From an uncultured Bacilli bacterium (GTDB taxonomy: Bacteria > Bacillota_I > Bacilli_A > RF39 > UBA660): DNA of 64,000 nucleotides. The stretch is from the NCBI GenBank assembly GCA_910588195.1, contig CAJUPN010000003.1, positions 42,842 through 106,841 on the forward strand, in the 5' to 3' direction. Made by a program: the position numbers and the translations under genes. Every line of letters begins with the position of its first letter. Within the stretch, counting starts at the first letter, position 1. The notes under the pieces were generated by a model. That model worked only from the letters and a program-made list of their open reading frames with translations, made no database searches and was not told where the DNA came from. Shown piece by piece: positions 1,883 to 47,101 of the stretch.

Positions 1883-4800
1883 ATGAAGCTTTATATAGCC
1901 GATAAAACAAAGATATATGATTTTAATTTGCCTGCAAGAGTGGAGGATTCTTTTTTAATTAATTATGTTTCGCCAGAAGGAGTTTCAGAAAATATTACTT
2001 TAATAGCTGATAATGGAAAATGGACTTTAAGAAAAAACCAAAACTATATTGTTAAAAAAAATGTGTTTGATATTGATGTTGATATTGTTGAAAATTTATC
2101 TTTTTATGATATTTCTTTTAATGATATAAAAGACCCTATTAAAATGTTTTTTTATGAAGCTCCAATAAATTATAATAGATACTCTATTATGGGTAAGACA
2201 AGAATAGTTATAGGTGGAGAAGAATGTGATATCATTTGCAAGTCTATAGGGATTAATCAAAATCAGGTTGTTATAGAACTTACTAATGGATTTTGGGAAA
2301 TTAAGTCTTTAGATAATTTAGTATATACTTATGTTAATTCTAAAAGGATTCTTTCCTCAAAATTAAATGCTGGAGACATAATTTTTATAGATGGCATAAA
2401 AATAATCTGGATGGTAAGCTTTATTCTTATTAATGATGTTCCAGATAAATTACAAGTTTCTTTTCCGATTGATGAGAGTCAAAAATTATTACATGATGAT
2501 AATTTATGTGAACCAGTTGATGGTACTGAAAAATACGCTACACTTTATAATGATAATGATGTTTTTTTTCATACCCCAAGATTAAAATCAGAATTTAAAA
2601 AAACACAGGTCCATATTGATGCTCCACCTGATGTCATTAAAGATGATGGTCCACCAGCAATACTAACTTTAGGTGCAACAATAATGATGGGTGTATCTTC
2701 TTCTATAACAGGAATAGTAGCAATATTTAGCGTGGTTTCTGGTCAAAGAAGTTTAGTAGGTTCTATATCAGAAATTATTATTTGTATTGCACTAATACTT
2801 GGATGTATTTTATTTCCTATATTATTGGATAAGTATCAAAGGAAAAAACTTCAGACAAAAGAAAACAATAGACAAAATAAATACAGTGAATATCTAAAAA
2901 AGAAAAAAAGTAAAATTAATGATTTAATGCAAAGAGAAAAAGAAATTCTTTTTCAAAATAATCTTAATTCTGAAGAATTAATTGACAATATTCAAAAAGT
3001 AACTAATAAAATTTGGAGCCGTGAAATAGGTGATAATGATTTTTTAACTTTTAGATTAGGTATTGGTAATAAAAAAGCAGATTTGGAAATTGATGCTACT
3101 ATTGAAGATTTTAGAATTGAAGATGATAATTTAAAAGAAGAAGTAGAGTCATTAGTTAATACTAAATTTATTTTAAATGATGTTCCAATTACCATATCAG
3201 CAATTGAAAATAGAATATTACCAATTATAATAGATGAAACATTTTCTAATAGAAAAGAAGTAATTGACAACATTATGGCTCAATTAATCTCTTTCTATAG
3301 TGGTATTGATTTAAAAATTGTTGTTTTTACTGATGAAGAAAATTATAGTAAATGGGAATATTTGAAATATTTGCCACATTTAAAAAGCAATGATAGTGAT
3401 GTAAGATTTTTTGCAACAAATGAAGATGAGATGAAGCAAGTATCATCTTATTTAGAAAATATATTTGTAGAAAGAAATATTAAAATAAAAAATATTGAAC
3501 GCACAGAAGAGGAACAAGATCCTAAAGAAAATAATCAGTATTACAAAAACTTTGATGAATACTATTTAATTGTTACTGATAATTATCTATTAGCAAAAAG
3601 ATCAGGTATAGTAGATAAAATATTAAATAGTAAAGCAAATACTGGTTTTTCTTTAATGATGATTGAAGAGTCTTTAAAAAATATTCCTAGTAGATTTAGC
3701 CAATTCATACAGTTTAAGAATAATGAATCTGGTATATTTAGCAAGGATTTAAGTGCATTGCAAGATTATAGTTTTAAACCAGATTTATTTATTGGAGATA
3801 TAGCAATTTCTTCGTTGACTATTGCTAATATTCCAGCTTCTTCTATAAATTTAGCTAATCAACTTCCAAATACTATTAACTTTTTAGAAATGTACAATGT
3901 TGGAAAAATTGATCAACTTAACATTGTTAATAGATGGACTAAAAATGATCCAACTAATAGTTTAAAGGCTCCTATTGGAGTGCACCCTGATGGAAAGCTT
4001 TTTGAATTAGACTTACATGAAAAATTTCATGGTCCTCATGGTTTAATTGCTGGATCTACTGGTTCTGGTAAGAGTGAGTTTATTATTTCATTTATCTTAT
4101 CTATGGCGGTTAATTATCACCCTGATGAAGTTCAATTTGTTCTTATTGATTATAAAGGTGGTGGCTTAGCTGGAGCCTTTGAAAATAGAGAAACTGGAAT
4201 AAAGATTCCTCATCTTGTTGGAACTATTACAAATTTAGATACGGGAGAAATGAATAGAACACTTGTATCGATTAATAGTGAACTCAAAAGACGACAAAGA
4301 ATGTTTAATGAAGCTAGAGATTTACTTGGTGAGAGTACTGTTGACATTTATAAATATCAAAAATTTTATCGTGATGGCAAAGTTAAAGTACCTATTTCTC
4401 ATCTATTTATAATATCTGATGAGTTTGCAGAATTAAAAAGTCAACAGCCTGATTTTATGGATGAATTAATATCAGCTGCTAGAATTGGTAGATCTCTTGG
4501 AGTTCATTTAATACTAGCAACTCAAAAGCCAAGTGGAGTTGTCGATGATCAAATCTGGTCTAACTCTAAATTTAAAATATGTTTAAAAGTACAAACATCA
4601 GAGGATAGTATGGAATTACTAAAAAGGTCGGATGCTGCAAGTATTAAAGAAACAGGACGATTTTATTTACAAGTTGGATTTGATGAATTGTTTGAAATTG
4701 GTCAATCAGCATGGTCTGGAGCCAGATATATTCCTCAAGATAGAATGGAAAAAAATATTGACGATTCAATAAAAATTGTTGACAATAGTGGTAATTTGAT

Positions 4801-6469
4801 CAAAGAAATTACTGATACAATAAAAATAGAAAGCCAAGTAAACTATGGTGATCAGTTAACGAATATTGTTAAATCTTTATATGAAATATCAAAACGTGAA
4901 AATATAAATACGAGACAATTATGGTTACCAAGTATTCCTCCAGAAATATACTTAATAAACACGATTAAAAAATATAGCTATAAACCACAACCTTATCTAA
5001 TAAATCCTGTAATTGGAGAATATGATATACCAGCATCTCAGCTACAAAATATTTTAACAATTGATTTTACTAATTCTGGTAATTTAATTATTTATGGAAA
5101 TGCGGGCACAGGAAAAGAAAATCTTCTAATGACTTTAGTTTATTCTATCTGTATATTTCATACTTCAGCAGAAATTAGTCTTTATATAATGGATTTTGGT
5201 GCAGAGGTTTTAAAGATTTTCTCTTCAATTCCGCAAGTAGGAGATGTTGTTTTACTAGAAGAAAATAATAAAGTTAGAAGTCTATTATTAATGATAGAAA
5301 GAGAAATAAATAGAAGAAAAGAACTATTTTCAAAACATGGTGGAAGTTACATTTCATATATAAAAAATTCAGATGAAAAAATGCCTTTAATGATGATTAT
5401 TCTAAATGGTTATGAAACATTTATAGAGAGTCATGGCGATTATGATGATTTCTTTGCTCATCTAGTTCGAGAGAGTTCTAAATATGGAATTGTATTTGTT
5501 ATGACAGCCATTTCTCCATCATCTGTAAAGACAAAGATTAGTCAGTCATTCCCAAATAAGATAGCTACACAATTGTCAGATAATTTTGATTATAAATTCT
5601 ATTTAGATGCACCAGAGGGTCTAACTCCATCTAAATATTTTGGTCGAGGAATTATTAGTATGGATGGTTCTGCTTATGAAATGCAAAGTTGTTTAATTGC
5701 TCAAAAAAATTTAATTAATCAATGTATAATAACAACTTTTGAAAAATATGCTAAGACAGCATCTAAAACTCCTCCTATCCCTGTTATTCCTAAAGTAATT
5801 ACTTCTGATACTTTATCAAGTTATATTGATAGCATAAAAAATGTGCCAATCGGTATAAATATTTATGACGCAAGTGTTAATAAGTTTGATTTTACTGCTA
5901 ATAAGATATCACAAATAATAGGTAATAATTTATTAATTGAAAATGCTTTTATTACTAATTTTGTTTCCATAATGTCTTCCATTCCAAATGTAAATGTAAA
6001 AATTATAGATTTCGTTGGATGTATTTCAGACAATTATGGATTAGATTATGTTAGTGGTGAATTCACTGCTAACATTAGTCAGATAGAAAATGAAAGTAGC
6101 GAAAAATCAATCGTTTATATTTTATTAGGAGTTGGTTATATTTACGATAAAGTTTTAGATGAAGGAATTGATAAATTGTTTAGTATTTTAGACAATTTAA
6201 ATAATTTACAAAATAAACATTTTATCTTTGCAGATAATTATTCTTCGTATAAGCGAATTATGAAAGAAGATTGGTACAGTAAAATTGTTAACAACAAATC
6301 TGGAATTTGGATTGGTAAAGGCGTTGATATTCAAAATGCAATTAAGTTTAATTCAATGTCTTTAAGTGATGTTAATGAGAACTTTAAAGGACTAGCATAT
6401 GTTTCAAATAATGAAATATATCATGTTATAAAGAGTTTAGGTACTGAAGATGGAGGCGATATTTATTAA
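1883..6469 (+). CDS. essC: Type VII secretion FtsK/SpoIIIE-family ATPase EssC/YukB
   Basis: 1528 aa. N-terminal FHA-like region, two TM helices (about aa 255-315) and three tandem FtsK/SpoIIIE ATPase modules. D1 has a canonical Walker A GSTGSGKS (nt 4052-4075) and Walker B IISDEFAEL. Confidence 0.9.
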   Translation: MKLYIADKTKIYDFNLPARVEDSFLINYVSPEGVSENITLIADNGKWTLRKNQNYIVKKNVFDIDVDIVENLSFYDISFNDIKDPIKMFFYEAPINYNRYSIMGKTRIVIGGEECDIICKSIGINQNQVVIELTNGFWEIKSLDNLVYTYVNSKRILSSKLNAGDIIFIDGIKIIWMVSFILINDVPDKLQVSFPIDESQKLLHDDNLCEPVDGTEKYATLYNDNDVFFHTPRLKSEFKKTQVHIDAPPDVIKDDGPPAILTLGATIMMGVSSSITGIVAIFSVVSGQRSLVGSISEIIICIALILGCILFPILLDKYQRKKLQTKENNRQNKYSEYLKKKKSKINDLMQREKEILFQNNLNSEELIDNIQKVTNKIWSREIGDNDFLTFRLGIGNKKADLEIDATIEDFRIEDDNLKEEVESLVNTKFILNDVPITISAIENRILPIIIDETFSNRKEVIDNIMAQLISFYSGIDLKIVVFTDEENYSKWEYLKYLPHLKSNDSDVRFFATNEDEMKQVSSYLENIFVERNIKIKNIERTEEEQDPKENNQYYKNFDEYYLIVTDNYLLAKRSGIVDKILNSKANTGFSLMMIEESLKNIPSRFSQFIQFKNNESGIFSKDLSALQDYSFKPDLFIGDIAISSLTIANIPASSINLANQLPNTINFLEMYNVGKIDQLNIVNRWTKNDPTNSLKAPIGVHPDGKLFELDLHEKFHGPHGLIAGSTGSGKSEFIISFILSMAVNYHPDEVQFVLIDYKGGGLAGAFENRETGIKIPHLVGTITNLDTGEMNRTLVSINSELKRRQRMFNEARDLLGESTVDIYKYQKFYRDGKVKVPISHLFIISDEFAELKSQQPDFMDELISAARIGRSLGVHLILATQKPSGVVDDQIWSNSKFKICLKVQTSEDSMELLKRSDAASIKETGRFYLQVGFDELFEIGQSAWSGARYIPQDRMEKNIDDSIKIVDNSGNLIKEITDTIKIESQVNYGDQLTNIVKSLYEISKRENINTRQLWLPSIPPEIYLINTIKKYSYKPQPYLINPVIGEYDIPASQLQNILTIDFTNSGNLIIYGNAGTGKENLLMTLVYSICIFHTSAEISLYIMDFGAEVLKIFSSIPQVGDVVLLEENNKVRSLLLMIEREINRRKELFSKHGGSYISYIKNSDEKMPLMMIILNGYETFIESHGDYDDFFAHLVRESSKYGIVFVMTAISPSSVKTKISQSFPNKIATQLSDNFDYKFYLDAPEGLTPSKYFGRGIISMDGSAYEMQSCLIAQKNLINQCIITTFEKYAKTASKTPPIPVIPKVITSDTLSSYIDSIKNVPIGINIYDASVNKFDFTANKISQIIGNNLLIENAFITNFVSIMSSIPNVNVKIIDFVGCISDNYGLDYVSGEFTANISQIENESSEKSIVYILLGVGYIYDKVLDEGIDKLFSILDNLNNLQNKHFIFADNYSSYKRIMKEDWYSKIVNNKSGIWIGKGVDIQNAIKFNSMSLSDVNENFKGLAYVSNNEIYHVIKSLGTEDGGDIY

Positions 6470-6725
6470 TAATAAGGTTTTTATAAAATTATTAATCCCT
6501 GAAATTGATAAAAGTTATGATGTTTCATTACCTGTTAATAAAAGAATTGGAAACATAATAAATCTTTTAAATGCAACAGTTTCTGAAATGTCTAATGGTG
6601 AATTAACGCTTTCAAAAAACAGTGTCCTTTATAATGCAAGAACTGGAGAAAAATATATGCCAAACACACTATTACTTAATACTAATATTCGCAATGGTAC
6701 TATATTAGTTTTACTTACAAATTAA
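6450..6725 (+). CDS. esaB: EsaB/YukD-like small ubiquitin-fold T7SS protein
   Basis: 91 aa, overlaps the essC 3' end by 20 nt. Pattern of beta-strand hydrophobics and the C-terminal NGTILVLL resemble YukD/EsaB (GDxLxLL tail). Confidence 0.6.
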   Translation: MEAIFINNKVFIKLLIPEIDKSYDVSLPVNKRIGNIINLLNATVSEMSNGELTLSKNSVLYNARTGEKYMPNTLLLNTNIRNGTILVLLTN

Positions 6726-6749
6726 AATCACTTCATACGAAGTGATTTT
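6724..6749. terminator. Bidirectional rho-independent terminator between the convergent essC-esaB and WXG operons
   Basis: 11-bp perfect stem aaaatcacttc / gaagtgatttt with loop atac, flanked by A/T runs on both sides. Confidence 0.7.
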
Positions 6750-6754
6750 AATTA

Positions 6755-7081
6755 TTAACTCTTTACTGAATCAGACACATCTCTAATTACATTTGATGAT
6801 GTATCATATTTAGAATAATTACTTGCTAATGTAGAAATTCTATTTTGGAATCTATCTAAAGATTGAAATAATACAGTTATTTGTTGATCAATTGTATTAA
6901 TCAAAGTTGTAGCTTGAGCTTCAACTGAAGTTCCTTTTATAGCAGCTTGTATTTCTGACTTAGATGCAGAAATATTTGTTAATTTTACTAAACTATTTTT
7001 ATAATCTTGAACTGCTTGTTGCATTTTCGCAATACCTGCAGTGTTAATACCAGTTATTCCTGTTGCCATTTTATTCACCAT
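6755..7081 (-). CDS. WXG100-superfamily-like small helical protein lacking the WXG motif
   Basis: 108 aa, no signal peptide, predicted helix-turn-helix hairpin. Lies directly downstream of a WXG protein. The central turn reads IKGTSVEA instead of WxG. Confidence 0.5.
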   Translation of the reverse strand: MVNKMATGITGINTAGIAKMQQAVQDYKNSLVKLTNISASKSEIQAAIKGTSVEAQATTLINTIDQQITVLFQSLDRFQNRISTLASNYSKYDTSSNVIRDVSDSVKS

Positions 7082-7086
7082 TCTTT

Positions 7087-7392
7087 CTACTTATTATTGG
7101 TTTGGAATTTCATAAATGCACTTTGTTCAGTATCGAATGCATCTACATATTTCTTAAAATTAGATATATTTTTATTTAAAGTATCTATTTGTTTTTCAAG
7201 ATCTTTAATAAATGCTGTTGCATCTTCTCCTACCCAATAATTGTTGATTGTATTTACCATTGACTTATAGCTGTCACTTGTTGGAGTTAATTTTTTTGTA
7301 ACTGCTGTAATGTCTCCAATTAGGTTTGCTTTTAAATTCTTTATGCCTGTAGTACTACGTGCATAAGTTGCGTTTGACATTGTTAAACCCAT
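7087..7392 (-). CDS. WXG100 (ESAT-6-like) protein
   Basis: 101 aa with a central W-V-G (NNYWVGEDATAF) at aa 53-55. No signal peptide. Adjacent to essC. Confidence 0.65.
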   Translation of the reverse strand: MGLTMSNATYARSTTGIKNLKANLIGDITAVTKKLTPTSDSYKSMVNTINNYWVGEDATAFIKDLEKQIDTLNKNISNFKKYVDAFDTEQSAFMKFQTNNK

Positions 7393-12714: not shown

Positions 12715-13461
12715 TTAAATCTTCATTAATTTCAACTTTTTAAATGTTTGATCTGTTGTTTTTTTATGTCTATTTATAGCTTGTAGGTCAATTTTTTGAA
12801 GAGATTTAATATCTTTAAATCTTGTTTTTATATTTTCTGGAATAACAAAGTTTTGAAATATTTTATTATCTCTAAAAAACTTGTATGAAGCATATATAAA
12901 ATATTCTTTTGGTATTCCATTGATTGTTTTTATTTCAGAATTATTACATATTTCATCAAAATTTTCATCTGGTAAATCCATAATATCTATCATCTTTTTA
13001 ATCGGTATTGAATAGGATATTCCATCCATTTCTATACTAAAACAACTATCTTTTGTTTTATCTAAAAGTTTCTCATATGAAATGGTATTTCGTAGATTTT
13101 CATATCGAATTTCTTCTTCAGGATTTAATACTAAATTTTTAGAATTAATAAGTTCTTGTATTCCTTCTACAATAGTTGATTTAGAATATTTAATTGTTCT
13201 TCCTGTGTCTCCACCAATTATATAGCTTACGCCAAACGTTGGTATTTTATCTTCTAAAAACTTCTTGGCATAATTATAATAATTATTATTTTGAATAATT
13301 CTTTTTAAAAATTCTACTAAAACGTCCTCCCCGTTAAATAATATATGTTCACCATTATCCATATTTTTCATATCATCAGAAGTTGTTAAAATTATGGATT
13401 CTGTTATTTTCCTAAGATATGGATATTTTTCCAACGATTCTTCTATTGTTAATTCTTCCAT
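12715..13461 (-). CDS. Hypothetical protein, probable N-terminal portion of a frameshift-split gene
   Basis: 248-aa ORF. Its stop lies just after an A5 run (coding strand; plus-strand T5 at 12737-12741). The downstream ORF's frame is already open from 12739. Confidence 0.5.
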   Translation of the reverse strand: MEELTIEESLEKYPYLRKITESIILTTSDDMKNMDNGEHILFNGEDVLVEFLKRIIQNNNYYNYAKKFLEDKIPTFGVSYIIGGDTGRTIKYSKSTIVEGIQELINSKNLVLNPEEEIRYENLRNTISYEKLLDKTKDSCFSIEMDGISYSIPIKKMIDIMDLPDENFDEICNNSEIKTINGIPKEYFIYASYKFFRDNKIFQNFVIPENIKTRFKDIKSLQKIDLQAINRHKKTTDQTFKKLKLMKI

Positions 13462-27509: not shown

Positions 27510-27532
27510 AAATTTAAACATTTCTAGTTTTT
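27501..27532. terminator. Bidirectional terminator shared by the PBP and parB-family genes
   Basis: 13-bp perfect stem aaaaactagaaat / atttctagttttt that contains both stop codons. Confidence 0.65.
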
Positions 27533-28663
27533 GTCTTTGTCATTATATACTCTTACAATAAATTGATAGAATTTGTCAAAACTAAATTCTTCTAATTCAA
27601 TTGGAACTTCATTAGCTTTGGCTTTAGTAACAATTTTTTTGATGCCCATAATAACATCGTCCATTGTTTTATAATCTTCTTCAATAAAGACTTTTTCTAC
27701 TTCTTGATTTTTTTCTGAAGAAGTTTCTTCCTCTAAAATATCTTCATCTTCTTCATCAAGTTCTAAAAGTTCATAATCTCTTTCAATGGCTTTTTCAGTA
27801 GTTACACTATTTTTAAATGGATTAAAACCAAAATTCAAAGTTGGATCCATATTAGCTGCTTCATTTTCTAAGTTATTAAAGAAAAGAGAATCTTTCTTTT
27901 TATTATTTTCTTTAATGTTTGATTGATATTGATAATTTACTGGAGTAAATTCTTCTTCCATAAATATATCCGTAGAGTTATTAACAATATCATCTACATT
28001 AACATCAATTCTTGTATTGGCATTTATAGCACCTGTGATTGGCGTGTCTTTTTTATAGGTTCCAAGTAATTTATCAATTTCTTCATCTAATTTTCTTACT
28101 GGCCATTTTTCATTTATTATCTTATTTAATAAATCCACTTGTTTAAACTTGTCTGTAACACGTAAAAGACTTCTGGCATGTCTTTCACTTATTTGTTCTT
28201 TTAATAAAGACTCTTGAACAGTAGCATCAAGAGATAATAATCTTATTTTATTAGCAATGTTTGATTGGCTTGTTCCTAAACGTGTTGCAAGTTGATCTTG
28301 GGTTACGTATTTTCTGTCTAATAATTTCTTATATGATTTTGCTTCTTCTATTGGTGATAAATCTCTTCTGTGTGTATTTTCAATAATTGCGACTTCTGCT
28401 GATTCATTATCATCTAAATCAGAAATTACCGCTGGAACACTAGTTAATCCTGCTAGAGTTGCAGCTTTAAATCTTCTCTCTCCTGCAATTATTTCAAATT
28501 TATCTCCAACTCTTCTTAAAACCAAAGGCTGAATTATTCCATGTTCTTTAATAGATTCTGATAATTCATTTAAAGCCAATTCGTCAAATTGAAGTCTTGG
28601 TTGAAATCTATTTGGAATAATACTGTCGATATTAATTAATCTTATTTGTGATTCCATCTTCAT
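27524..28663 (-). CDS. noc: ParB-family protein, Noc-like (nucleoid-occlusion type) with a long acidic insert
   Basis: ParB box IAGERRFKAA, HTH GTSQSNIANKIRLLSL and ISERHARSLL (Noc-like). C-terminal EEFSFDKFYQFIVRV resembles the Noc tail. Located directly after rsmG as noc is in B. subtilis. Confidence 0.7.
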   Translation of the reverse strand: MKMESQIRLINIDSIIPNRFQPRLQFDELALNELSESIKEHGIIQPLVLRRVGDKFEIIAGERRFKAATLAGLTSVPAVISDLDDNESAEVAIIENTHRRDLSPIEEAKSYKKLLDRKYVTQDQLATRLGTSQSNIANKIRLLSLDATVQESLLKEQISERHARSLLRVTDKFKQVDLLNKIINEKWPVRKLDEEIDKLLGTYKKDTPITGAINANTRIDVNVDDIVNNSTDIFMEEEFTPVNYQYQSNIKENNKKKDSLFFNNLENEAANMDPTLNFGFNPFKNSVTTEKAIERDYELLELDEEDEDILEEETSSEKNQEVEKVFIEEDYKTMDDVIMGIKKIVTKAKANEVPIELEEFSFDKFYQFIVRVYNDKDKN

Positions 28664-35001: not shown

Positions 35002-35178
35002 CTTTCAACGTTGAAAGTTGATAACTTATAAACTTAATTGAAAACTTTTTTTATTAATTTGTTGAAAAGGTTGAAAACTATTTCAAAATACTATATTATA
35101 GTACATTAAGAGTTGAAAACTTTGTTGAAAAATGTGGTAAAAAGTCTTTTTTCAATATTTTTCTTTACTTTTTCAACT
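35002..35178. other. oriC part 1: cluster of at least 10 variant DnaA boxes upstream of dnaA
   Basis: Repeated TT(T/A)TCAAC / GTTGA(A/T)AA 9-mers at about 35002, 35009, 35017, 35037, 35060, 35070, 35112, 35123, 35149 and 35170, plus TGTGGTAAA at 35133. An AT-rich tract lies at 34921-34990. Confidence 0.75.
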
Positions 35179-36672: not shown

Positions 36673-36725
36673 TTATCAACTTTTTCAACCCTAATAATAA
36701 TAACAATATAATAATAAATAAAAGA
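36673..36725. other. oriC part 2: two DnaA boxes, GC cluster, TAA-trio / AT-rich unwinding element
   Basis: TTATCAACT (36673-36681), TTTTCAACC (36682-36690), CCC (36689-36691), then TAATAATAATAA CAATATAATAATAAATAAAAG. Confidence 0.55.
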
Positions 36726-37950: not shown

Positions 37951-38409
37951 ATGAGCGATTATACTATTAATAATGAAACTCTAGCAATTATATCCTGTGG
38001 AAATGATATTTCGTTAGTATATGAGGGAAAGGAAATGTTTGTTATTAATGAAAGACCAAATAACATTATAAAGAAAAATTGTTTAAAATATGGTAGTTCT
38101 TTTGAAGGAAGATTAAAAAGTGCAGAAATTATTACAGGATGTAAGTATAAATCTCCTATTGTAGTGAGTGGTTCAAAAAGATTAATATTTTTTCCAACAT
38201 CTTCCCCAAGGTTAAAATCCGTTAGTTGGATTAATATGATGAATATTGATAGAGTTTATTATAATGCTTTAAAAAAAGTGACAGTTATTGTATTTCAAAA
38301 TGATGTTTTATTGGAATTAAAGGTCAGTTTAAACATTTTAAACAATCAAATATTAAAATCAATGCAATTAGAACATTATTTAAGAAAAAAAAGGTATAAT
38401 AGAGCATAA
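37951..38409 (+). CDS. comK: ComK-family competence transcription factor-like protein
   Basis: CLKYGSSFEGRLKS, KYKSPIVV and LIFFPTSSPRLKSVSWIN align with the ComK core (CRFFGSSYAGRK, HKPPIMV, IFLFPT...CGWIS). Confidence 0.7.
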   Translation: MSDYTINNETLAIISCGNDISLVYEGKEMFVINERPNNIIKKNCLKYGSSFEGRLKSAEIITGCKYKSPIVVSGSKRLIFFPTSSPRLKSVSWINMMNIDRVYYNALKKVTVIVFQNDVLLELKVSLNILNNQILKSMQLEHYLRKKRYNRA

Positions 38410-41525: not shown

Positions 41526-43988
41526 ATGAATGGAAATGTTGTAAGACGTAATATAGTAGATGAAATAAAAGATTCTTTTCTAGAATATTCAATGAGTGTA
41601 ATTGTTGCAAGAGCTTTACCTGACCTTAGAGATGGTTTAAAACCTGTTCACAGAAGAATTCTATATTCTATGTATGAGAATGGCTATACCCCTGATAAAC
41701 CTTTTAGAAAATGTGCTAAAACGGTTGGAGAGGTTATGGGTAATTATCATCCTCATGGAGACACATCAATTTATGATGCAATGGTTCGTATGGCTCAACC
41801 TTTTTCAATTAGAAATGTTTTAGTTGATGGACATGGTAATTTTGGTTCTATGGATGGTGATGGTGCAGCAGCAATGCGTTATACAGAAGCTAGACTTTCA
41901 AGACTATCGTTAGAAATATTAAGAGATATAAGGAAAGATACAGTTGATTTTGTACCAAATTTCGATGATACAACTACTGAGCCAACTGTTCTTCCTTGTC
42001 GTTTCCCTAATATTTTAGTTAATGGTACTGTTGGTATAGCAGTTGGTATGGCTACTAACATTCCTCCTCATAATTTAGGAGAAACAATTGATGGCTGTAT
42101 TGCTTATATTGATAATCATGATATTACTACTGAAGAATTAATGGAATATGTTAAAGGACCGGATTTTCCAACTGGTGCTGTAATTTTAGGTAATTCGGGA
42201 ATCAGAAGAGCATACGAGACTGGAAAAGGAACAATAACAATCCGTGGTAAAGTGGCGATTGAAGAACATAATGGACATCAATTAATAGTAATTACAGAAT
42301 TACCATATCAAGTTAATAAGAAGTTGTTTCAACAGAGAATTGCTGAACTTGTTCGTGATAAAATGCTTGATGGAATAGCAGATTTACACGAAGAAACAAA
42401 CTTAGAAAATGGTGTTAAGATAGTAATTACTCTTAAGAAAGAGGCAAATGCTAATGTAGTTTTAAACAATTTATATAAACAAACATCATTACAAACAAAT
42501 TTTAGTATAAATTTATTAATGTTAGATCAACAAAAGCCTAGAACAATGGGACTTAAAGAGATTATTTCTAAATATATTGAATATCAAAAAGAAATAATTA
42601 TTAGACGTACTAAATATGACCTAGGTAAAGCAGAAGAAAGAGTGCATATTTTAAATGGATATAAAATAGCTCTTGAAAATATTGATGATGTAGTTCAAAT
42701 TATTAAGAATTCTAAAAGTGATGATCAAGCTAAACAAACTTTAATGGATAGATTTGGTCTTACTGATATTCAAACTGAAGCAATCTTAGAAATGCGTTTA
42801 AGAAGATTAACTGGTTTAGAAAAAGATAAAATATTAGCAGAACTTGAAGAATTATTAAGAAAAATTGAGGAATATAAAGCAATTTTAGCTGATGACCAAT
42901 TAGTTTTAAATATTATAAAAGAAGAGTTAACTGAAATTAAGGATAAGTTTGCTGATGAAAGACGTACTTATATCGATATGACAGCTATTGACTTTATTGA
43001 TGATGAGTCTTTAATACCAGAAGAAGATATTATTATTAGTATAACTGATAAAGGATATATTAAAAGATGTGTTTCAGGAACATTTAAATCACAACATCGT
43101 GGTGGTGTTGGAGTTAAAGGAATGTCTACAAATGAAGAGGACTTCGTTAAACATTTGATTAATTGTTCTACGCACGACTATGTAAGTTTCTTTACCAATA
43201 AGGGTAAAGTTTATAGAATTAAAGGATACGAAATTCCTGAGTATTCTAGACAAGCTAAAGGTTTACCAGTAATTAATTTACTTCAAATTGATAAAGATGA
43301 GAAAATTAATTCTATAGTTTCTTATAGCAAGGAATCATCTTCTAAATATTTAACATTTGCAACAAAAAATGGAATTGTAAAACGAACTTTAGTTGATGAA
43401 TTTGAAAATATTCGTGCTAGCGGGAAAATAGCTATTAGTTTAAGAGAAAATGATGAGCTTTTAGATGTTAAATTAACTGATGGAGAATCAAAGATTATTT
43501 TAGCTAGTACATCTGGACGTATGGTAGTATTTGATGAAAATGAAATAAGACCAATGGGAAGAACAGCATCAGGTGTAAGAGGAATTAACTTAGAAGATAC
43601 TGCTAGTTGTACTGGTATGGAAGTTGGAAAATTAGAAGATAATATTCTAGTTGTAACAAAACATGGATATGGAAAGAAAACATTTGTTAGTGAATACAGA
43701 ATGACTAAGAGAGGAAGTAAAGGAGTTAAGGCTTTAAGTATAACCGATAAGAATGGTCCTTTAGTTGCTCACAAAGTAGTTAACAATGAGTCTGATTTAA
43801 TGATTATAACTGAATCTGGAATGTTAATACGTCTTCCAATTGATCAAATATCTCAATTGGGACGTGTTACTCAAGGAGTTAAGCTTATAAATTTAAAAGA
43901 AAATCAATATGTATCAACAATTAGTGTGGTTGATAGAGTTGAAGAAAATGAAGAAACGGAAGAATTAAACGAAGAAACTGTTAATTAA
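41526..43988 (+). CDS. gyrA: DNA gyrase subunit A
   Basis: DGLKPVHRR, active-site [10 protein letters not shown] and C-terminal beta-pinwheel repeats. Confidence 0.97.
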
Positions 43989-44087
43989 CAGTTTCTTTAA
44001 CCACTCATCTTTTTAACAAAATGTTAATAAGATGAGTGGTTTATTTATTTTAATTTTTATAAAAAAATCAATAAGATAAATTTTTAT

Positions 44088-44763
44088 AGTTTCACGTGAA
44101 ACATTACTCTAATGCAAATTTGAATATTTGTTATTTTTTTCTGTATTAATACTAATTTTAAATGTTCCACGTGAAACATAATACTTAATCAGAACAAAGA
44201 CTTAAATTTTATAAATAAGATATAGTTAACTTTTTTATTAAAATATTTGTTTTATTACTTTTTAAATCAAATATATGTTTCACGTGAAACATGTATTTGA
44301 TAAGATACTATATTTTTTAAGAAAACAACTTAATTTTTAATGTTTCACGTGAAACATTAAAAAAATCTTGGTTTAATACTTAAAATATTAATTTTTGCTA
44401 TATTTTTTATACATACAACTAAACTTGAATATTTTTTATCAGCTATATTCCAACTAGAATATAACTAACCTTAATAATAAAGACATCTTTTTGTTTTATG
44501 ATGTTTCACGTGAAACATACATATATAGTATTTTTTTGTATCAAAATATTAATTTATATATATTTTTCTTTAATATGTGCACAATTATCTCTACCATTTT
44601 TGTTTTTTTTGTTAACTATGTTCCACGTGAAACATCAAAACTAAATAAAAAAAGATATAATTAAAATTTATATTTTATATATTTGAATGTTCCACGTGAA
44701 ACATCTAACAATATAATTATTGTACAATTCTTTACTTTTTATAATAATGTTTCACGTGAAACA
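44088..44763. repeat. Array of eight parS (ParB/Spo0J centromere) sites in non-coding DNA
   Basis: 16-mers at 44088 (AGTTTCACGTGAAACA); 44163, 44619 and 44688 (TGTTCCACGTGAAACA); 44276, 44341, 44502 and 44748 (TGTTTCACGTGAAACA). Seven of the eight are flanked A...T, giving an 18-bp unit. Spacings are 75, 113, 65, 161, 117, 69 and 60 bp. Confidence 0.85.
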
Positions 44764-44954
44764 TTATTATTGTGGAATATACAAAAAAAGCATATCTGTT
44801 TAACTTTTTTGACAGTTTTTTCTTTTTTGAGTAGTTTTATCATGATTTATATAACAAATTTTAATAAATTGTAGTATTTTATGAGAAAAAAATAAGATAT
44901 TTAAAATTTGTAAGAAATTATAGTATGTCTTTAACAAAAAATGTGTTATAATTA

Positions 44955-45031
44955 GCTTGCACAACAAATATGCTATAAACTGGTCAGGATCGGAAGATAG
45001 CAGCCACATTAGTCTCTATTTGTGTGTGCTT
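44955..45031 (+). ncRNA. ffs: Small (4.5S-type) SRP RNA
   Basis: Conserved domain IV core GGUCAGGAUCGGAAGAUAGCAGCC, closing helix gcacaacaaata / tatttgtgtgtgc and a T-run. TGTTATAAT -10 upstream. Same position (before tadA-dnaX) as scr in Bacillus. Confidence 0.75.
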
Positions 45032-45052
45032 TTTTTATGAGGTGAAATAAAA

Positions 45053-45478
45053 ATGGATGAATATGTATTTAAAATACTTGAATTAGCAGATAAAGCATAT
45101 AAAAAAAATGAGGTTCCAGTCGGAGCAATTGTAGTTTTCAACAATAAAATTGTTTCACAAGCTTATAATAAAAGAACTAAATATAGTGATATAACAAATC
45201 ATGCTGAAATTATGGCGATAAGAAAAGCAGCTAAGAAACTTGGCGATTGGAGATTGGATAAATGCGATTTGTATGTGACTTTAGAGCCTTGTAACATGTG
45301 CAAAGAAGTTATTAAACAATCACGCTTAAGAAATGTATATTATCTTATAGAAAAATTGGATTATAAAAAAGATTATAATAAAACTGTGTTTGAAAAGATT
45401 GCAGAAAAAGAAAGTTATCAACAATTAAAATACAAAGAAAAGTTATCTTCTTTTTTTAAATATAAATGCAAAAGATAA
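45053..45478 (+). CDS. tadA: tRNA-specific adenosine deaminase TadA
   Basis: HAEIMAI and PCNMC zinc motifs. Confidence 0.9.
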   Translation: MDEYVFKILELADKAYKKNEVPVGAIVVFNNKIVSQAYNKRTKYSDITNHAEIMAIRKAAKKLGDWRLDKCDLYVTLEPCNMCKEVIKQSRLRNVYYLIEKLDYKKDYNKTVFEKIAEKESYQQLKYKEKLSSFFKYKCKR

Positions 45479-45514: not shown

Positions 45515-47101
45515 ATGGATTACAAAGTTTTATACAGAAAATATCGACCAACGAACTTTGACGAATTAGTTGGACAGGAACATGTAAAAAAAATATTAAA
45601 AAATTCAGTTATTAACAATAAAATTGCTCATGCTTATATGTTTACTGGACCAAGAGGAACAGGAAAAACAAGTACAGCTAAAATTTTTGCTAGAACACTT
45701 AATTGTCTTGAACCAAAGGAAGGACTTCCTTGTGGGACTTGTGAAAATTGTGTTAATTTTAATACTTCTCCTGATGTTTTGGAGATGGATGCTGCTAGTA
45801 ATAACAGTGTAGATGATATTAGAGAAATTGTAGATAATATAGGTATAGCTCCAACAAGTAGTAAATATAAAGTTTATATTATTGATGAAGTACATATGCT
45901 ATCTAATCAGGCTTGGAATGCTTTTTTAAAGACACTTGAAGAACCGCCTTCTAATATTGTCTTTATATTAGCAACAACTGATATTCAAAAAGTGCCCATT
46001 ACAGTACTATCGAGATGTCAAAGGTTTGATTTTCAAAGAATTGATCGCAATTTGATATTTGCCAATTTAAAGAGAATATGTGAGTTAGAAAATATATCTT
46101 ACGAAGAGGAAGCTTTAACGGAAGTTGCTTTTTTAAGTGATGGCTGTTTGAGAGATGCTTTAAGTATACTTGATCAACTCTCTAAGGTTTCTGATAAGGT
46201 AGATATGGAAGTAATTAAATCTAATTTTGGAACAGTTACATCTGCTGAATTAGATGTTCTTTATACTTTTATAATAAAAAATGATTTAGACGGTGTTGTG
46301 AGTATTTTAAGGAGTATAAAAGAAACAGGAATAGATGTAAAAATATTTATAGATAAAATATTAGATAACTTTATTGAGAAAGCTATTAATATGAAAAGAA
46401 AAAATATTTCTTCGTCAGCTTTTAATCAATTAAAAAAGATTATAGAGGTGTTGAATCAATTGTATAGTAAACTTAATTATAGTAGTAATGGTTTTCTTTT
46501 ACTTGAATTGGAGTTAATATCATTTATAAATGATGAAGAAAATCAAATTTCTAACAGAGAAATAAATCAAATTATTTCCCGGGAAATAATTAAAGTTGAC
46601 ACAGAAGTTGACGTTAATAAGATGATTAATACAAACAGTGAACATCAAATATATCGTATGAATGAGGATTTTGTTAATGTTAGGATAAACAATACATTTG
46701 TTAACTGTAATAAGGAATATAAGAAATCTTTTTCAGAATTATGGAATAATTTTATTAAAAATTTAAAGTCTGAGAATGTTATTGATTTTTTAAATATTGT
46801 TAGTAAATCTATTCCTCAAGTTGTAAGTGATTCTTATGCAATATTTTTGACAAAATCTGAGAGTATAAAAATTGTTGGCAATTCTAAGCTTTATGATCTA
46901 GAAAATAGATTTAGTGCTATTACTGGTTCAAGTTATAAGTTTATTTTTATATCTGATGATGACTGGAAAAAATTCATGGAAAGTTATGATAAAACAAAAA
47001 AATATGATATCATTGATGAAACAGAATATATTAATACTGAGAGTAATTCGATTACATTAGCTGAAAATATATTTGGTAATGAAAATTTGAAAATAGATTA
47101 G
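45515..47101 (+). CDS. dnaX: DNA polymerase III subunits gamma/tau
   Basis: GPRGTGKTS, zinc module CGTCENC, DEVHML and SRCQRF. Confidence 0.95.
   Translation: MDYKVLYRKYRPTNFDELVGQEHVKKILKNSVINNKIAHAYMFTGPRGTGKTSTAKIFARTLNCLEPKEGLPCGTCENCVNFNTSPDVLEMDAASNNSVDDIREIVDNIGIAPTSSKYKVYIIDEVHMLSNQAWNAFLKTLEEPPSNIVFILATTDIQKVPITVLSRCQRFDFQRIDRNLIFANLKRICELENISYEEEALTEVAFLSDGCLRDALSILDQLSKVSDKVDMEVIKSNFGTVTSAELDVLYTFIIKNDLDGVVSILRSIKETGIDVKIFIDKILDNFIEKAINMKRKNISSSAFNQLKKIIEVLNQLYSKLNYSSNGFLLLELELISFINDEENQISNREINQIISREIIKVDTEVDVNKMINTNSEHQIYRMNEDFVNVRINNTFVNCNKEYKKSFSELWNNFIKNLKSENVIDFLNIVSKSIPQVVSDSYAIFLTKSESIKIVGNSKLYDLENRFSAITGSSYKFIFISDDDWKKFMESYDKTKKYDIIDETEYINTESNSITLAENIFGNENLKID
46571..46590. 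promoter_or_regulatory. Perfect 20-bp palindrome containing the Noc-binding-site core ATTTCCCGGGAAAT
   Basis: attatttcccgggaaataat lies inside dnaX and encodes I-I-S-R-E-I-I using the TCC and CGG codons. Confidence 0.6.

What the first reader, a model, noticed from the sequence alone, without database searches (positions are those of the whole stretch)
44088..44763. Eight parS centromere sites packed into one 676-bp intergenic tract next to oriC
The non-coding gap between gyrA and the SRP RNA gene carries eight copies of the palindrome (A)TGTTYCACGTGAAACA(T).
- Four copies are the perfect palindrome TGTTTCACGTGAAACA.
- Three are TGTTCCACGTGAAACA, all in the same orientation.
- One has a single 5' mismatch.
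This is the 16-bp parS sequence defined for B. subtilis Spo0J/ParB (TGTTNCACGTGAAACA).

In the well-studied Firmicutes, parS sites are single copies scattered over hundreds of kb, often inside genes. A tandem non-coding array with irregular 60-161 bp spacing, about 9 kb from dnaA, looks more like a plasmid centromere. It could act as a very strong ParB clamp and SMC loading zone.

Several copies sit in longer palindromes of 28-32 bp (sites at 44276, 44341 and 44748). I saw no other full parS elsewhere in the window.
Basis: partly seen in the sequence, partly recalled or inferred. Interest (0 to 1): 0.85.

Follow-up and report, generated by a model that had tools for sequence, protein, structure and literature searches.

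The report
Dense origin-proximal parS centromere cluster
The eight palindromes are real, conserved ParB-binding (parS) sites packed about 9 kb from the replication origin of an uncultured low-GC gut bacterium. Clusters this dense turn out to be common in bacteria, so this is an ordinary chromosomal centromere rather than a new kind of element.

Summary
Eight parS sites lie at 44088-44763, seven perfect and one with a single mismatch. There are none elsewhere in the window or in about 18 kb fetched further left.

The sites are under selection. A sister species keeps 7-8 sites while the spacers have drifted to near-random identity. At least 15 more distant low-GC Bacilli lineages carry 2-9 parS in the same gyrA-ffs-tadA spacer.

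The density is not exceptional:
- Both collection scans stopped at their 120-locus limit.
- 15 of 120 metagenome contigs holding a tight parS triple have 8-12 sites within 700 bp.
- Myxococcus xanthus is already known to hold most of its 24 parS within 3 kb.

The array is not plasmid-like. Spacers are unrelated, spacing is irregular, and no par operon is adjacent.

The only ParB-family gene in the window (27524-28663) has Noc-type specificity residues (Q/K/S/R), and a perfect Noc-binding site sits in dnaX. The cognate parS-binding ParB must therefore be encoded elsewhere. I could not locate it.

In relatives, NBS sites interleave with parS in this same spacer, which is the most novel lead.

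Verdict: a new member of a known kind, of modest interest.

The parts
44088..44103 (.). parS-1, AGTTTCACGTGAAACA (one 5' mismatch)
   Evidence: identical in strains L001-L005
44163..44178 (.). parS-2, TGTTCCACGTGAAACA
   Evidence: This site holds the only within-species polymorphism found inside any site: the degenerate N position is T in L003.
44276..44291 (.). parS-3, perfect palindrome. Sits in a 36-bp palindrome at 44266-44301 with one mismatched pair.
   Evidence: I24; the palindrome is perfect in L001
44341..44356 (.). parS-4, perfect palindrome. Sits in a 30-bp perfect palindrome at 44334-44363.
44502..44517 (.). parS-5, perfect palindrome
44619..44634 (.). parS-6, TGTTCCACGTGAAACA
44688..44703 (.). 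parS-7, TGTTCCACGTGAAACA
44748..44763 (.). parS-8, perfect palindrome. Sits in a 30-bp perfect palindrome at 44741-44770.
41526..43988 (+). gyrA, the left boundary of the island. Its terminator-like hairpin is at 43999-44041.
   Evidence: NF004043, 1175 bits; I20
44953..45038 (+). ffs (small SRP RNA), the right boundary of the island
   Evidence: The same gyrA-parS-ffs-tadA order is seen in L011, L035, L110 and L130. In L017 the parS sites lie downstream of ffs.
27524..28663 (-). The only ParB-family gene in the window (379 aa), next to rsmG. It is Noc-type by its specificity residues (Q/K/S/R). It lacks Noc's N-terminal amphipathic helix and has a C-terminal extension of about 180 aa. It is predicted to bind NBS, not parS.
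46574..46587 (.). Perfect Noc-binding site ATTTCCCGGGAAAT inside dnaX (codons ISREI), 1.8 kb from the array
35061..35177 (.). Cluster of five TTTTCAAC repeats (DnaA-box-like variant) upstream of dnaA. This is the likely oriC.
   Evidence: GC-skew switch

Best explanation
The tract is the chromosomal centromere, a ParB loading zone, of an uncultured low-GC member of the Bacilli (Erysipelotrichales-like) from gut metagenomes.

Proposed mechanism:
1. A canonical ParB (Spo0J-type, with Arg and Gly at the two invariant specificity positions) is encoded outside this window.
2. It binds each 16-bp palindrome as a dimer, closes into a CTP-dependent sliding clamp and slides onto flanking DNA.
3. Eight loading sites within 0.7 kb raise the loading flux and make nucleation robust to the loss of individual sites.
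4. The result is one compact partition complex about 9 kb from oriC.
5. That complex recruits SMC-ScpAB, and ParA if the genome has one.

What is shown:
- the sequence identity to parS
- the origin-proximal position
- purifying selection on the sites
- conservation of the island across a clade

What is inferred:
- that a cognate ParB exists
- clamp loading
- SMC or ParA recruitment
For: **Sequence and position**
- All eight sites match the parS consensus with at most one mismatch, against 0.03 expected by chance.
- The array is 9 kb from dnaA/oriC.

**Selection**
- Within the species, 1 of 128 site columns varies, and that one is the degenerate N position. Outside the sites 43 of 946 columns vary.
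- A sister species (gyrA in the same 90%-identity cluster) keeps 7-8 sites. Overall spacer identity is 58%, against 53% for shuffled sequence.
- The same gyrA-[parS]-ffs/tadA-dnaX island, with 2-9 sites, occurs in 15 further lineages. These have gyrA 53-66% identical over the aligned part and GC 0.22-0.30.

**Comparison with other genomes**
- 99 of 120 other genomes with parS pairs carry them beside parB, rsmG, mnmG, dnaA or gyrB.
- Of the ParB-family ORFs on those loci, 52 have the R...G residues.

**Two separate binders**
- Only pure parS and pure NBS palindromes occur in the clade. No hybrid half-site combination was found among the 37 clade sites examined. This is what two distinct homodimeric binders would give.

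**Literature**
- Clustered origin-proximal parS is the rule (PMC8357415).
- More parS copies give more ParB clamp loading and stronger DNA condensation in vitro (PMC8299390).
- A dense M. xanthus cluster is bound by ParB in ChIP-seq.
Against: - No parS-type ParB was found. The window, about 18 kb to its left, and the loci of relatives hold only a Noc-type paralog.
- No ParA Walker-A motif is present in the window.
- The whole genome could not be scanned. So it is unknown whether this array holds all of the genome's parS, and whether ParB, ParA and SMC are encoded.
- No binding data exist.
Confidence: 0.85

Rival explanations
1. The Noc-type ParB paralog at 27524-28663 is the only ParB-family protein of the clade. 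It reads both parS and NBS, or has regained parS binding, so the array would be its loading zone rather than that of a canonical ParB.
For: - It is the only ParB-family gene found in the window plus about 18 kb to its left. The same holds within 10 kb of the gene in two relatives.
- It deviates from canonical Noc. Position 184 is S/T/N/Q rather than K, K171 is mostly T, and the N-terminal amphipathic helix is missing.
- NBS and parS sites are interleaved in the same spacer in relatives.
Against: - Q173, K179 and R201 are invariant in 120, 120 and 119 of 120 orthologs.
- In Jalal et al. 2020, Q173 plus R201 with a single Lys at position 179 or 184 gives NBS-specific binding. R173 and G201 are invariant in parS-binding ParBs. 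Dual-specificity variants mostly carry T or S at position 201.
- No hybrid parS/NBS half-site combination occurs among the 37 clade sites examined.
- Elsewhere, Q...R proteins sit next to a separate R...G ParB.
Confidence: 0.07
2. The palindromes are operators for an unrelated CACGTG-binding regulator, or structural hairpins or terminators controlling gyrA or ffs, and only resemble parS.
For: - In relatives the last site lies about 28-35 bp upstream of ffs.
- Several sites sit in longer palindromes.
Against: - Identity extends over the full 16-18 bp of the parS consensus, not only the CACGTG core.
- The same motif clusters beside parB, rsmG or dnaA across many phyla.
- In the window the last site is 190 bp from ffs.
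- The stems lack the T-tracts expected of terminators, and the only terminator-like hairpin on the gyrA strand is a separate one at 43999-44041.
Confidence: 0.04
3. The array is a neutral or selfish palindromic repeat, or a relic left after loss of ParB, and has no present function.
For: - Copy number varies between strains. L131 lost one unit by recombination between two sites.
- Some relatives have regular tandem arrays.
Against: - The sites stay perfect while the spacers drift to near-random identity.
- A GC-rich core is maintained in a 26% GC genome.
- The repeat is confined to one locus within the window and about 18 kb to its left.
- The island is conserved across deep divergence.
Confidence: 0.03

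Closest known systems
Myxococcus xanthus chromosomal parS cluster (24 sites, most within about 3 kb, about 30 kb from oriC)
   Same: - Many canonical parS packed at roughly one per 100 bp.
- A single origin-proximal chromosomal locus.
- Bound by ParB as one compact partition complex in ChIP-seq.
   Different: - A different phylum, and there the par system is essential and includes ParA.
- Here there are 8 sites in 0.68 kb, 9 kb from oriC.
- No parAB operon is nearby, and the cognate ParB is not yet located.
Bacillus subtilis parS / Spo0J (Lin & Grossman 1998 consensus TGTTNCACGTGAAACA)
   Same: - An identical 16-bp consensus.
- A Firmicute with Noc plus (inferred) ParB.
- ParB-dependent SMC loading is the expected role.
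   Different: B. subtilis has eight sites scattered over about 0.75 Mb, an arrangement described as a lineage-specific exception (PMC8357415). Here the eight sites lie in 676 bp of non-coding DNA.
ParB-only systems of Staphylococcus aureus and Streptococcus pneumoniae
   Same: - Bacilli with noc next to rsmG (my recollection for S. aureus).
- ParB without ParA, with ParB-parS serving SMC loading (bioRxiv 10.64898/2026.03.06.710092).
- No ParA is visible near the origin here either.
   Different: - S. aureus has five parS spread over about 400 kb.
- Whether this organism lacks ParA genome-wide is unknown.
Plasmid centromere repeat arrays (for example F sopC, twelve 43-bp tandem repeats; from my own knowledge)
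   Same: Several ParB-family binding sites within less than 1 kb of non-coding DNA.
   Different: - Plasmid arrays are tandem units of uniform length next to their parAB operon.
- Here spacing is irregular (60-161 bp), spacers are unrelated and the flanking genes are chromosomal housekeeping genes.
- There is no plasmid similarity.
Noc-NBS nucleoid occlusion system of B. subtilis
   Same: The window encodes a ParB paralog with Noc-type specificity residues and holds a perfect NBS.
   Different: - The eight array sites carry the parS bases, not the NBS bases, at both discriminating positions.
- The paralog lacks the membrane-targeting helix that Noc function requires.
- In the sequence surveyed, the clade's NBS sites cluster beside the parS island rather than being scattered.

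Membership tests
Chromosomal parS (ParB-binding centromere site) | Match to the 16-bp palindromic consensus TGTTNCACGTGAAACA | tested here: met
   Seven perfect sites and one with a single mismatch; chance expectation 0.03.
Chromosomal parS (ParB-binding centromere site) | Origin-proximal location | tested here: met
   8.9 kb from dnaA. GC-skew switch and DnaA-box-like cluster at about 35 kb.
Chromosomal parS (ParB-binding centromere site) | Sites conserved under selection in related genomes | tested here: met
   Cores are kept while spacers diverge. The island is present in at least 15 further lineages.
Chromosomal parS (ParB-binding centromere site) | A cognate ParB with parS-type specificity residues (R173/G201 equivalents) is encoded in the genome | tested here: inconclusive
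   None in the window, in about 18 kb to its left, or in relatives' loci; only a Q/K/S/R paralog.
Chromosomal parS (ParB-binding centromere site) | ParB binding, spreading and SMC loading at the sites | not testable with these tools
   Needs ChIP-seq, an in vitro binding assay or Hi-C.
Plasmid-type centromere repeat array | Tandem repeat units of uniform length with homologous spacers | tested here: not met
   Spacing is 60-161 bp. Only about 18-21 bp around each site is shared, and the spacers are unrelated.
Plasmid-type centromere repeat array | Adjacent to its own parAB operon on a mobile replicon | tested here: not met
   Flanked by gyrA and ffs/tadA/dnaX. No ParA motif in the window. No meaningful plasmid match.
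Noc-binding site (NBS) | A at position 1 and C at position 6 of each half-site (ATTTCCCGGGAAAT) | tested here: not met
   All eight array sites are parS/parS at both discriminating positions. The only NBS in the window is at 46574.
Noc (for the protein at 27524-28663) | Specificity residues Q173, K179, K184 and R201 | tested here: met
   Three of four are present (Q, K, S, R). One Lys at position 179 or 184 suffices for NBS specificity according to PMC7383237.
Noc (for the protein at 27524-28663) | N-terminal membrane-targeting amphipathic helix | tested here: not met
   The ORF starts 16 residues before the PNRFQPR motif with a good ribosome-binding site. The alignment to Noc begins at about Noc residue 26. 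The same holds in 113 of 120 orthologs.

The most novel reading that the evidence does not exclude
In this low-GC Bacilli clade the gyrA-ffs spacer may be a dual loading island for two paralogous CTP clamps. One is a canonical ParB on parS. The other is a Noc-derived protein that has lost the membrane helix and loads on NBS sites placed among or next to the parS sites.

Supporting observations:
- One relative has a 62-bp tandem unit alternating parS and NBS.
- The clade has 16 perfect NBS in 220 kb, and nine of them lie within 1 kb of a parS.
- There are none in 1.62 Mb of other parS-cluster loci.

The Noc paralog would then be an origin-organising factor rather than a nucleoid-occlusion factor. 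In the extreme version no canonical ParB exists and the paralog serves both site types.
Probability: 0.3. Interest if true: 0.6.

Novelty: new member of a known kind. Interest (0 to 1): 0.3.

Why it matters
- Compact, sub-kilobase parS islands occur inside the Bacilli, the class whose model organisms made scattered parS look typical.
- The work defines a clade-wide, positionally fixed centromere in the gyrA-ffs spacer with natural copy-number variation of 2-9 sites. That is a natural series for asking how the number of loading sites sets ParB flux and SMC loading.
- The side observation could open a new question about what Noc paralogs do. It consists of a helix-less Noc-type paralog, NBS sites interleaved with parS, and a parS/NBS swap at one dnaX codon position.
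- For the finding as submitted, the answer is that it is an ordinary chromosomal centromere.

Tried and rejected
1. **Looking for the cognate ParB or ParA.**
   - A six-frame Walker-A search and phmmer over all window ORFs found neither a ParA motif nor a second ParB-family ORF.
   - Look-ups extending about 18 kb left of the window found no ParB.
   - The neighbourhoods of two orthologs of the Noc-type gene, 71% and 57% identical, also held none.
   - A homology search with the Noc-type protein listed only its own orthologs among the best 120.
   - Further walking was judged too unlikely to succeed for its cost.
2. **Plasmid or mobile origin.** A blastn search against 72,556 plasmids gave one trivial hit. 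Rejected.
3. **Tandem-duplication array.** Repeat families extend only about 18-29 bp around each site, and the spacers are not homologous. Rejected for this species, although some relatives do have regular tandem arrays.
4. **The array as part of oriC.** No canonical or variant DnaA-box cluster lies in the spacer. Exact matches to the variant box cluster at 35.06-35.18 kb, with one more in the dnaA-dnaN spacer at 36682. Rejected.
5. **Reading Livny et al. 2007.** The paper is not held.
6. **Looking up the QKSR variant** in the supplement of Jalal et al. 2020. It is not listed in the held text.

Full report
**Observation**

The pattern TGTTNCACGTGAAACA, allowing up to two mismatches, matches eight places in the window: 44088, 44163, 44276, 44341, 44502, 44619, 44688 and 44748. 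It matches nowhere else in the 64 kb. Dinucleotide-preserving shuffles give 0.03 matches on average.
- Four sites are the perfect palindrome.
- Three are TGTTCCACGTGAAACA, in one orientation.
- One has a 5' A.
- Spacing is irregular: 75, 113, 65, 161, 117, 69 and 60 bp.

The tract starts 47 bp after a hairpin that follows the gyrA stop (I20). It ends 190 bp before the SRP RNA gene at 44953-45038.

**Context and organism**

The gene order is mnmG-mnmE-jag-yidC-rnpA-rpmH | dnaA-dnaN-comK-like-recF-gyrB-gyrA | array | ffs-tadA-dnaX-ybaB-recR.
- GC skew changes sign at about 34-36 kb.
- Five exact copies of a DnaA-box-like variant, TTTTCAAC, cluster at 35061-35177 upstream of dnaA.
- oriC is therefore about 9 kb from the array.

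The genome has 26% GC and carries spoIIR, spoIID, yabG and the RNA polymerase delta subunit. Sources label orthologs 'Bacilli bacterium' or 'Erysipelotrichales bacterium'. The gyrA protein is identical in hundreds of metagenome contigs and MAGs.

**Are the sites under selection?**
- Four strains with the full spacer carry all eight sites. A fifth contig ends inside the array.
- Across five spacers of the species, 1 of 128 columns inside sites varies, and that one is the degenerate N position. Outside the sites 43 of 946 columns vary.
- A sister species, whose gyrA falls in the same 90%-identity cluster, has 7-8 sites with different spacing and flanks. One strain has lost a unit by recombination between two sites.
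- Between the two species the spacer is 58% identical, against 53% for shuffled sequence. The site cores, the ffs promoter and ffs itself are kept.
- Four species representatives share the gyrA-tadA-dnaX-ybaB-recR gene order. Three have gyrA about 64% identical; in the fourth only a 62-residue piece aligns, at 53%. They carry 2, 4, 4 and 7 parS, and in three of them the sites lie between gyrA and ffs.
- Eleven metagenome contigs (gyrA 54-66% identical, GC 0.22-0.30) carry 3-9 sites in the same place. Some are regular 38-, 39-, 61- or 62-bp tandem arrays.

This is a positionally conserved centromere island of a whole clade.

**Is the density unusual?** No.
- A scan of 185,579 species representatives for two parS 35-65 bp apart stopped at its 120-locus limit, with hits from many phyla. 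In those loci the largest number of sites per 700 bp was 2 (68 loci), 3 (33), 4 (10), 5 (6) and 6 (3). 99 of the 120 loci carry parB, rsmG, mnmG, dnaA, gyrB or a neighbouring origin gene.
- A metagenome scan for three such sites also hit its limit. 15 of 120 contigs have 8-12 sites per 700 bp, and one has 21 sites in 3 kb.
- M. xanthus holds most of its 24 parS within 3 kb, and ParB forms one peak there (bioRxiv 10.1101/2021.05.05.442810).

The plasmid comparison also fails. Only about 18-21 bp around each site is shared, the spacers are unrelated, no par operon is adjacent, and there is no plasmid similarity.

**Who binds the sites?**

The window holds one ParB-family gene (27524-28663, next to rsmG) and no ParA motif.

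That gene matches Noc structures better than Spo0J: 197 against 164 bits. Aligned to B. subtilis Noc and Spo0J, its four specificity positions read Q, K, S, R. The mapping is checked by the fact that the Noc sequence itself reads QKKR at those positions and Spo0J reads R..G.

According to Jalal et al. 2020:
- R173 and G201 are invariant in parS-binding ParBs.
- Noc has QKKR.
- A single Lys at position 179 or 184 is enough for Q173 and R201 to read NBS specifically.

Further evidence that it is Noc-type:
- In 120 orthologs (56-98% identity), Q, K and R are kept in 120, 120 and 119.
- A perfect NBS (ATTTCCCGGGAAAT) lies in dnaX at 46574. The same NBS is kept at the same position in the sister species and in a more distant relative.
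- In the other collections, 52 and 35 ParB-family ORFs on parS-cluster loci are R...G. The six Q...R proteins among them either sit beside a separate R...G ParB or are the only ParB-family ORF held on their locus.
- Across the clade only pure parS and pure NBS palindromes occur, with no hybrids among the 37 sites examined.

I conclude that the local gene is an NBS binder and that a separate canonical ParB reads the array. I could not find that ParB. It is absent from the window, from about 18 kb to its left and from 10 kb around the paralog in two relatives. This is the main gap in the analysis.

**Mechanism**

Each site is expected to load a ParB dimer, which closes as a CTP clamp and slides away.
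- In vitro, more parS copies give a higher loading rate and more stable condensation. Condensation was seen with 7 or more sites (PMC8299390).
- A single compact cluster also avoids the SMC collisions that dispersed sites cause (PMC8357415).
- Binding, spreading and SMC or ParA recruitment are inferred, not shown.

**Beyond the finding**
- The Noc-type paralog lacks the N-terminal amphipathic helix that Noc needs for membrane binding. It carries a C-terminal extension of about 180 aa with a conserved motif.
- Perfect NBS sites number 16 in 220 kb of clade DNA, where composition predicts 0.0004.
- Nine of them lie within 1 kb of a parS (binomial p = 8e-4), and all lie within 5.4 kb.
- None occurs in 1.62 Mb of parS-cluster loci from other lineages.
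- One relative has a 62-bp tandem unit alternating parS and NBS.
- Another relative has a parS (VSRET) exactly where three lineages have the dnaX NBS (ISREI).
- Palindromy extends beyond the 16-bp core far more often than mismatched flank pairs predict. This holds in the clade (27% against 1% with an extension of 5 bp or more; permutation p <= 5e-5) and in other phyla (10% against 0.6%).

**Verdict**

This is a real, functional-looking chromosomal centromere cluster. It is a new member of a well-known kind and is not plasmid-like. Its density is not exceptional once broad sequence collections are examined. Interest for the finding itself is modest. The parS/NBS co-localisation and the helix-less Noc paralog are the parts worth following up.

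Noticed in passing
window 46574-46587 (inside dnaX); L130 10946; L110 3571; L017 2209: A perfect Noc-binding site encodes ISREI in the variable linker of DnaX and is kept at the same alignment column in three lineages. In L017 the same column holds a perfect parS encoding VSRET. So one coding position has switched between the two paralogs' sites while keeping the Ser-Arg-Glu residues.
   Followed up: partly
L170 13110-13312; also L011 2034-2102, L158 419-571, L232 3559-3806, L244 2276-2523: In relatives, NBS sites are interleaved with parS in the gyrA-ffs spacer, and L170 has a 62-bp tandem unit alternating the two. The clade has 16 perfect NBS in 220 kb, all within 5.4 kb of a parS. There are none in 1.62 Mb of parS-cluster loci from other lineages.
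   Followed up: partly
window 27524-28663 (-): The ParB paralog has Noc-type specificity residues but no N-terminal amphipathic helix and no ParB N-terminal peptide. It has a C-terminal extension of about 180 aa containing a highly conserved motif, SLFFNNLENEAANMDPTLNFGFNPF. At least 120 orthologs of 360-400 aa exist, none with soj/spo0J beside it in the two loci examined.
   Followed up: partly
window 44266-44301, 44334-44363, 44741-44770; L130 9109-9148: Palindromy extends 5-12 bp beyond the parS core with site-specific flank sequences, including a 40-bp perfect palindrome in the sister species. This is significant against mismatched flank pairs both in the clade and in other phyla. It may reflect template-switch 'perfecting' of quasi-palindromes or a preference of ParB for symmetric flanks; neither was tested.
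   Followed up: partly
window 35061-35177 and 36682-36689: The canonical DnaA box TTATCCACA is absent from the rpmH-dnaA and dnaA-dnaN spacers. Instead, five exact TTTTCAAC repeats, plus near-variants, cluster upstream of dnaA, and one lies before dnaN. This is likely a variant DnaA box of the lineage.
   Followed up: partly
window 37951-38409 (+): A ComK-family gene (152 aa; Pfam PF06338, E = 2.7e-33) sits between dnaN and recF. It is conserved at that position in the sister species and in a relative whose Noc-type ortholog is 71% identical.
   Followed up: no
L131 9038 versus L130 9062/9121; L005 end at 13018: One strain of the sister species has lost a unit by recombination between two parS sites: the left flank of site 7 is joined to the right flank of site 8. 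One MAG contig ends inside the array, so the repeats probably break assemblies.
   Followed up: yes
window 1883-7392: A block of about 5.5 kb holds a 1528-aa FtsK/SpoIIIE-family protein and three small ORFs. It is absent between the same flanking genes in another strain (L133), so it is a strain-variable island, possibly related to type VII secretion.
   Followed up: no
window 43900-45100: Sigma-70-like promoter matches are fewer than in shuffles of this AT-rich spacer (5 against 13.4 +/- 3.6). In three relatives the last parS ends only about 28-35 bp upstream of ffs, so ParB could touch the ffs promoter there.
   Followed up: no
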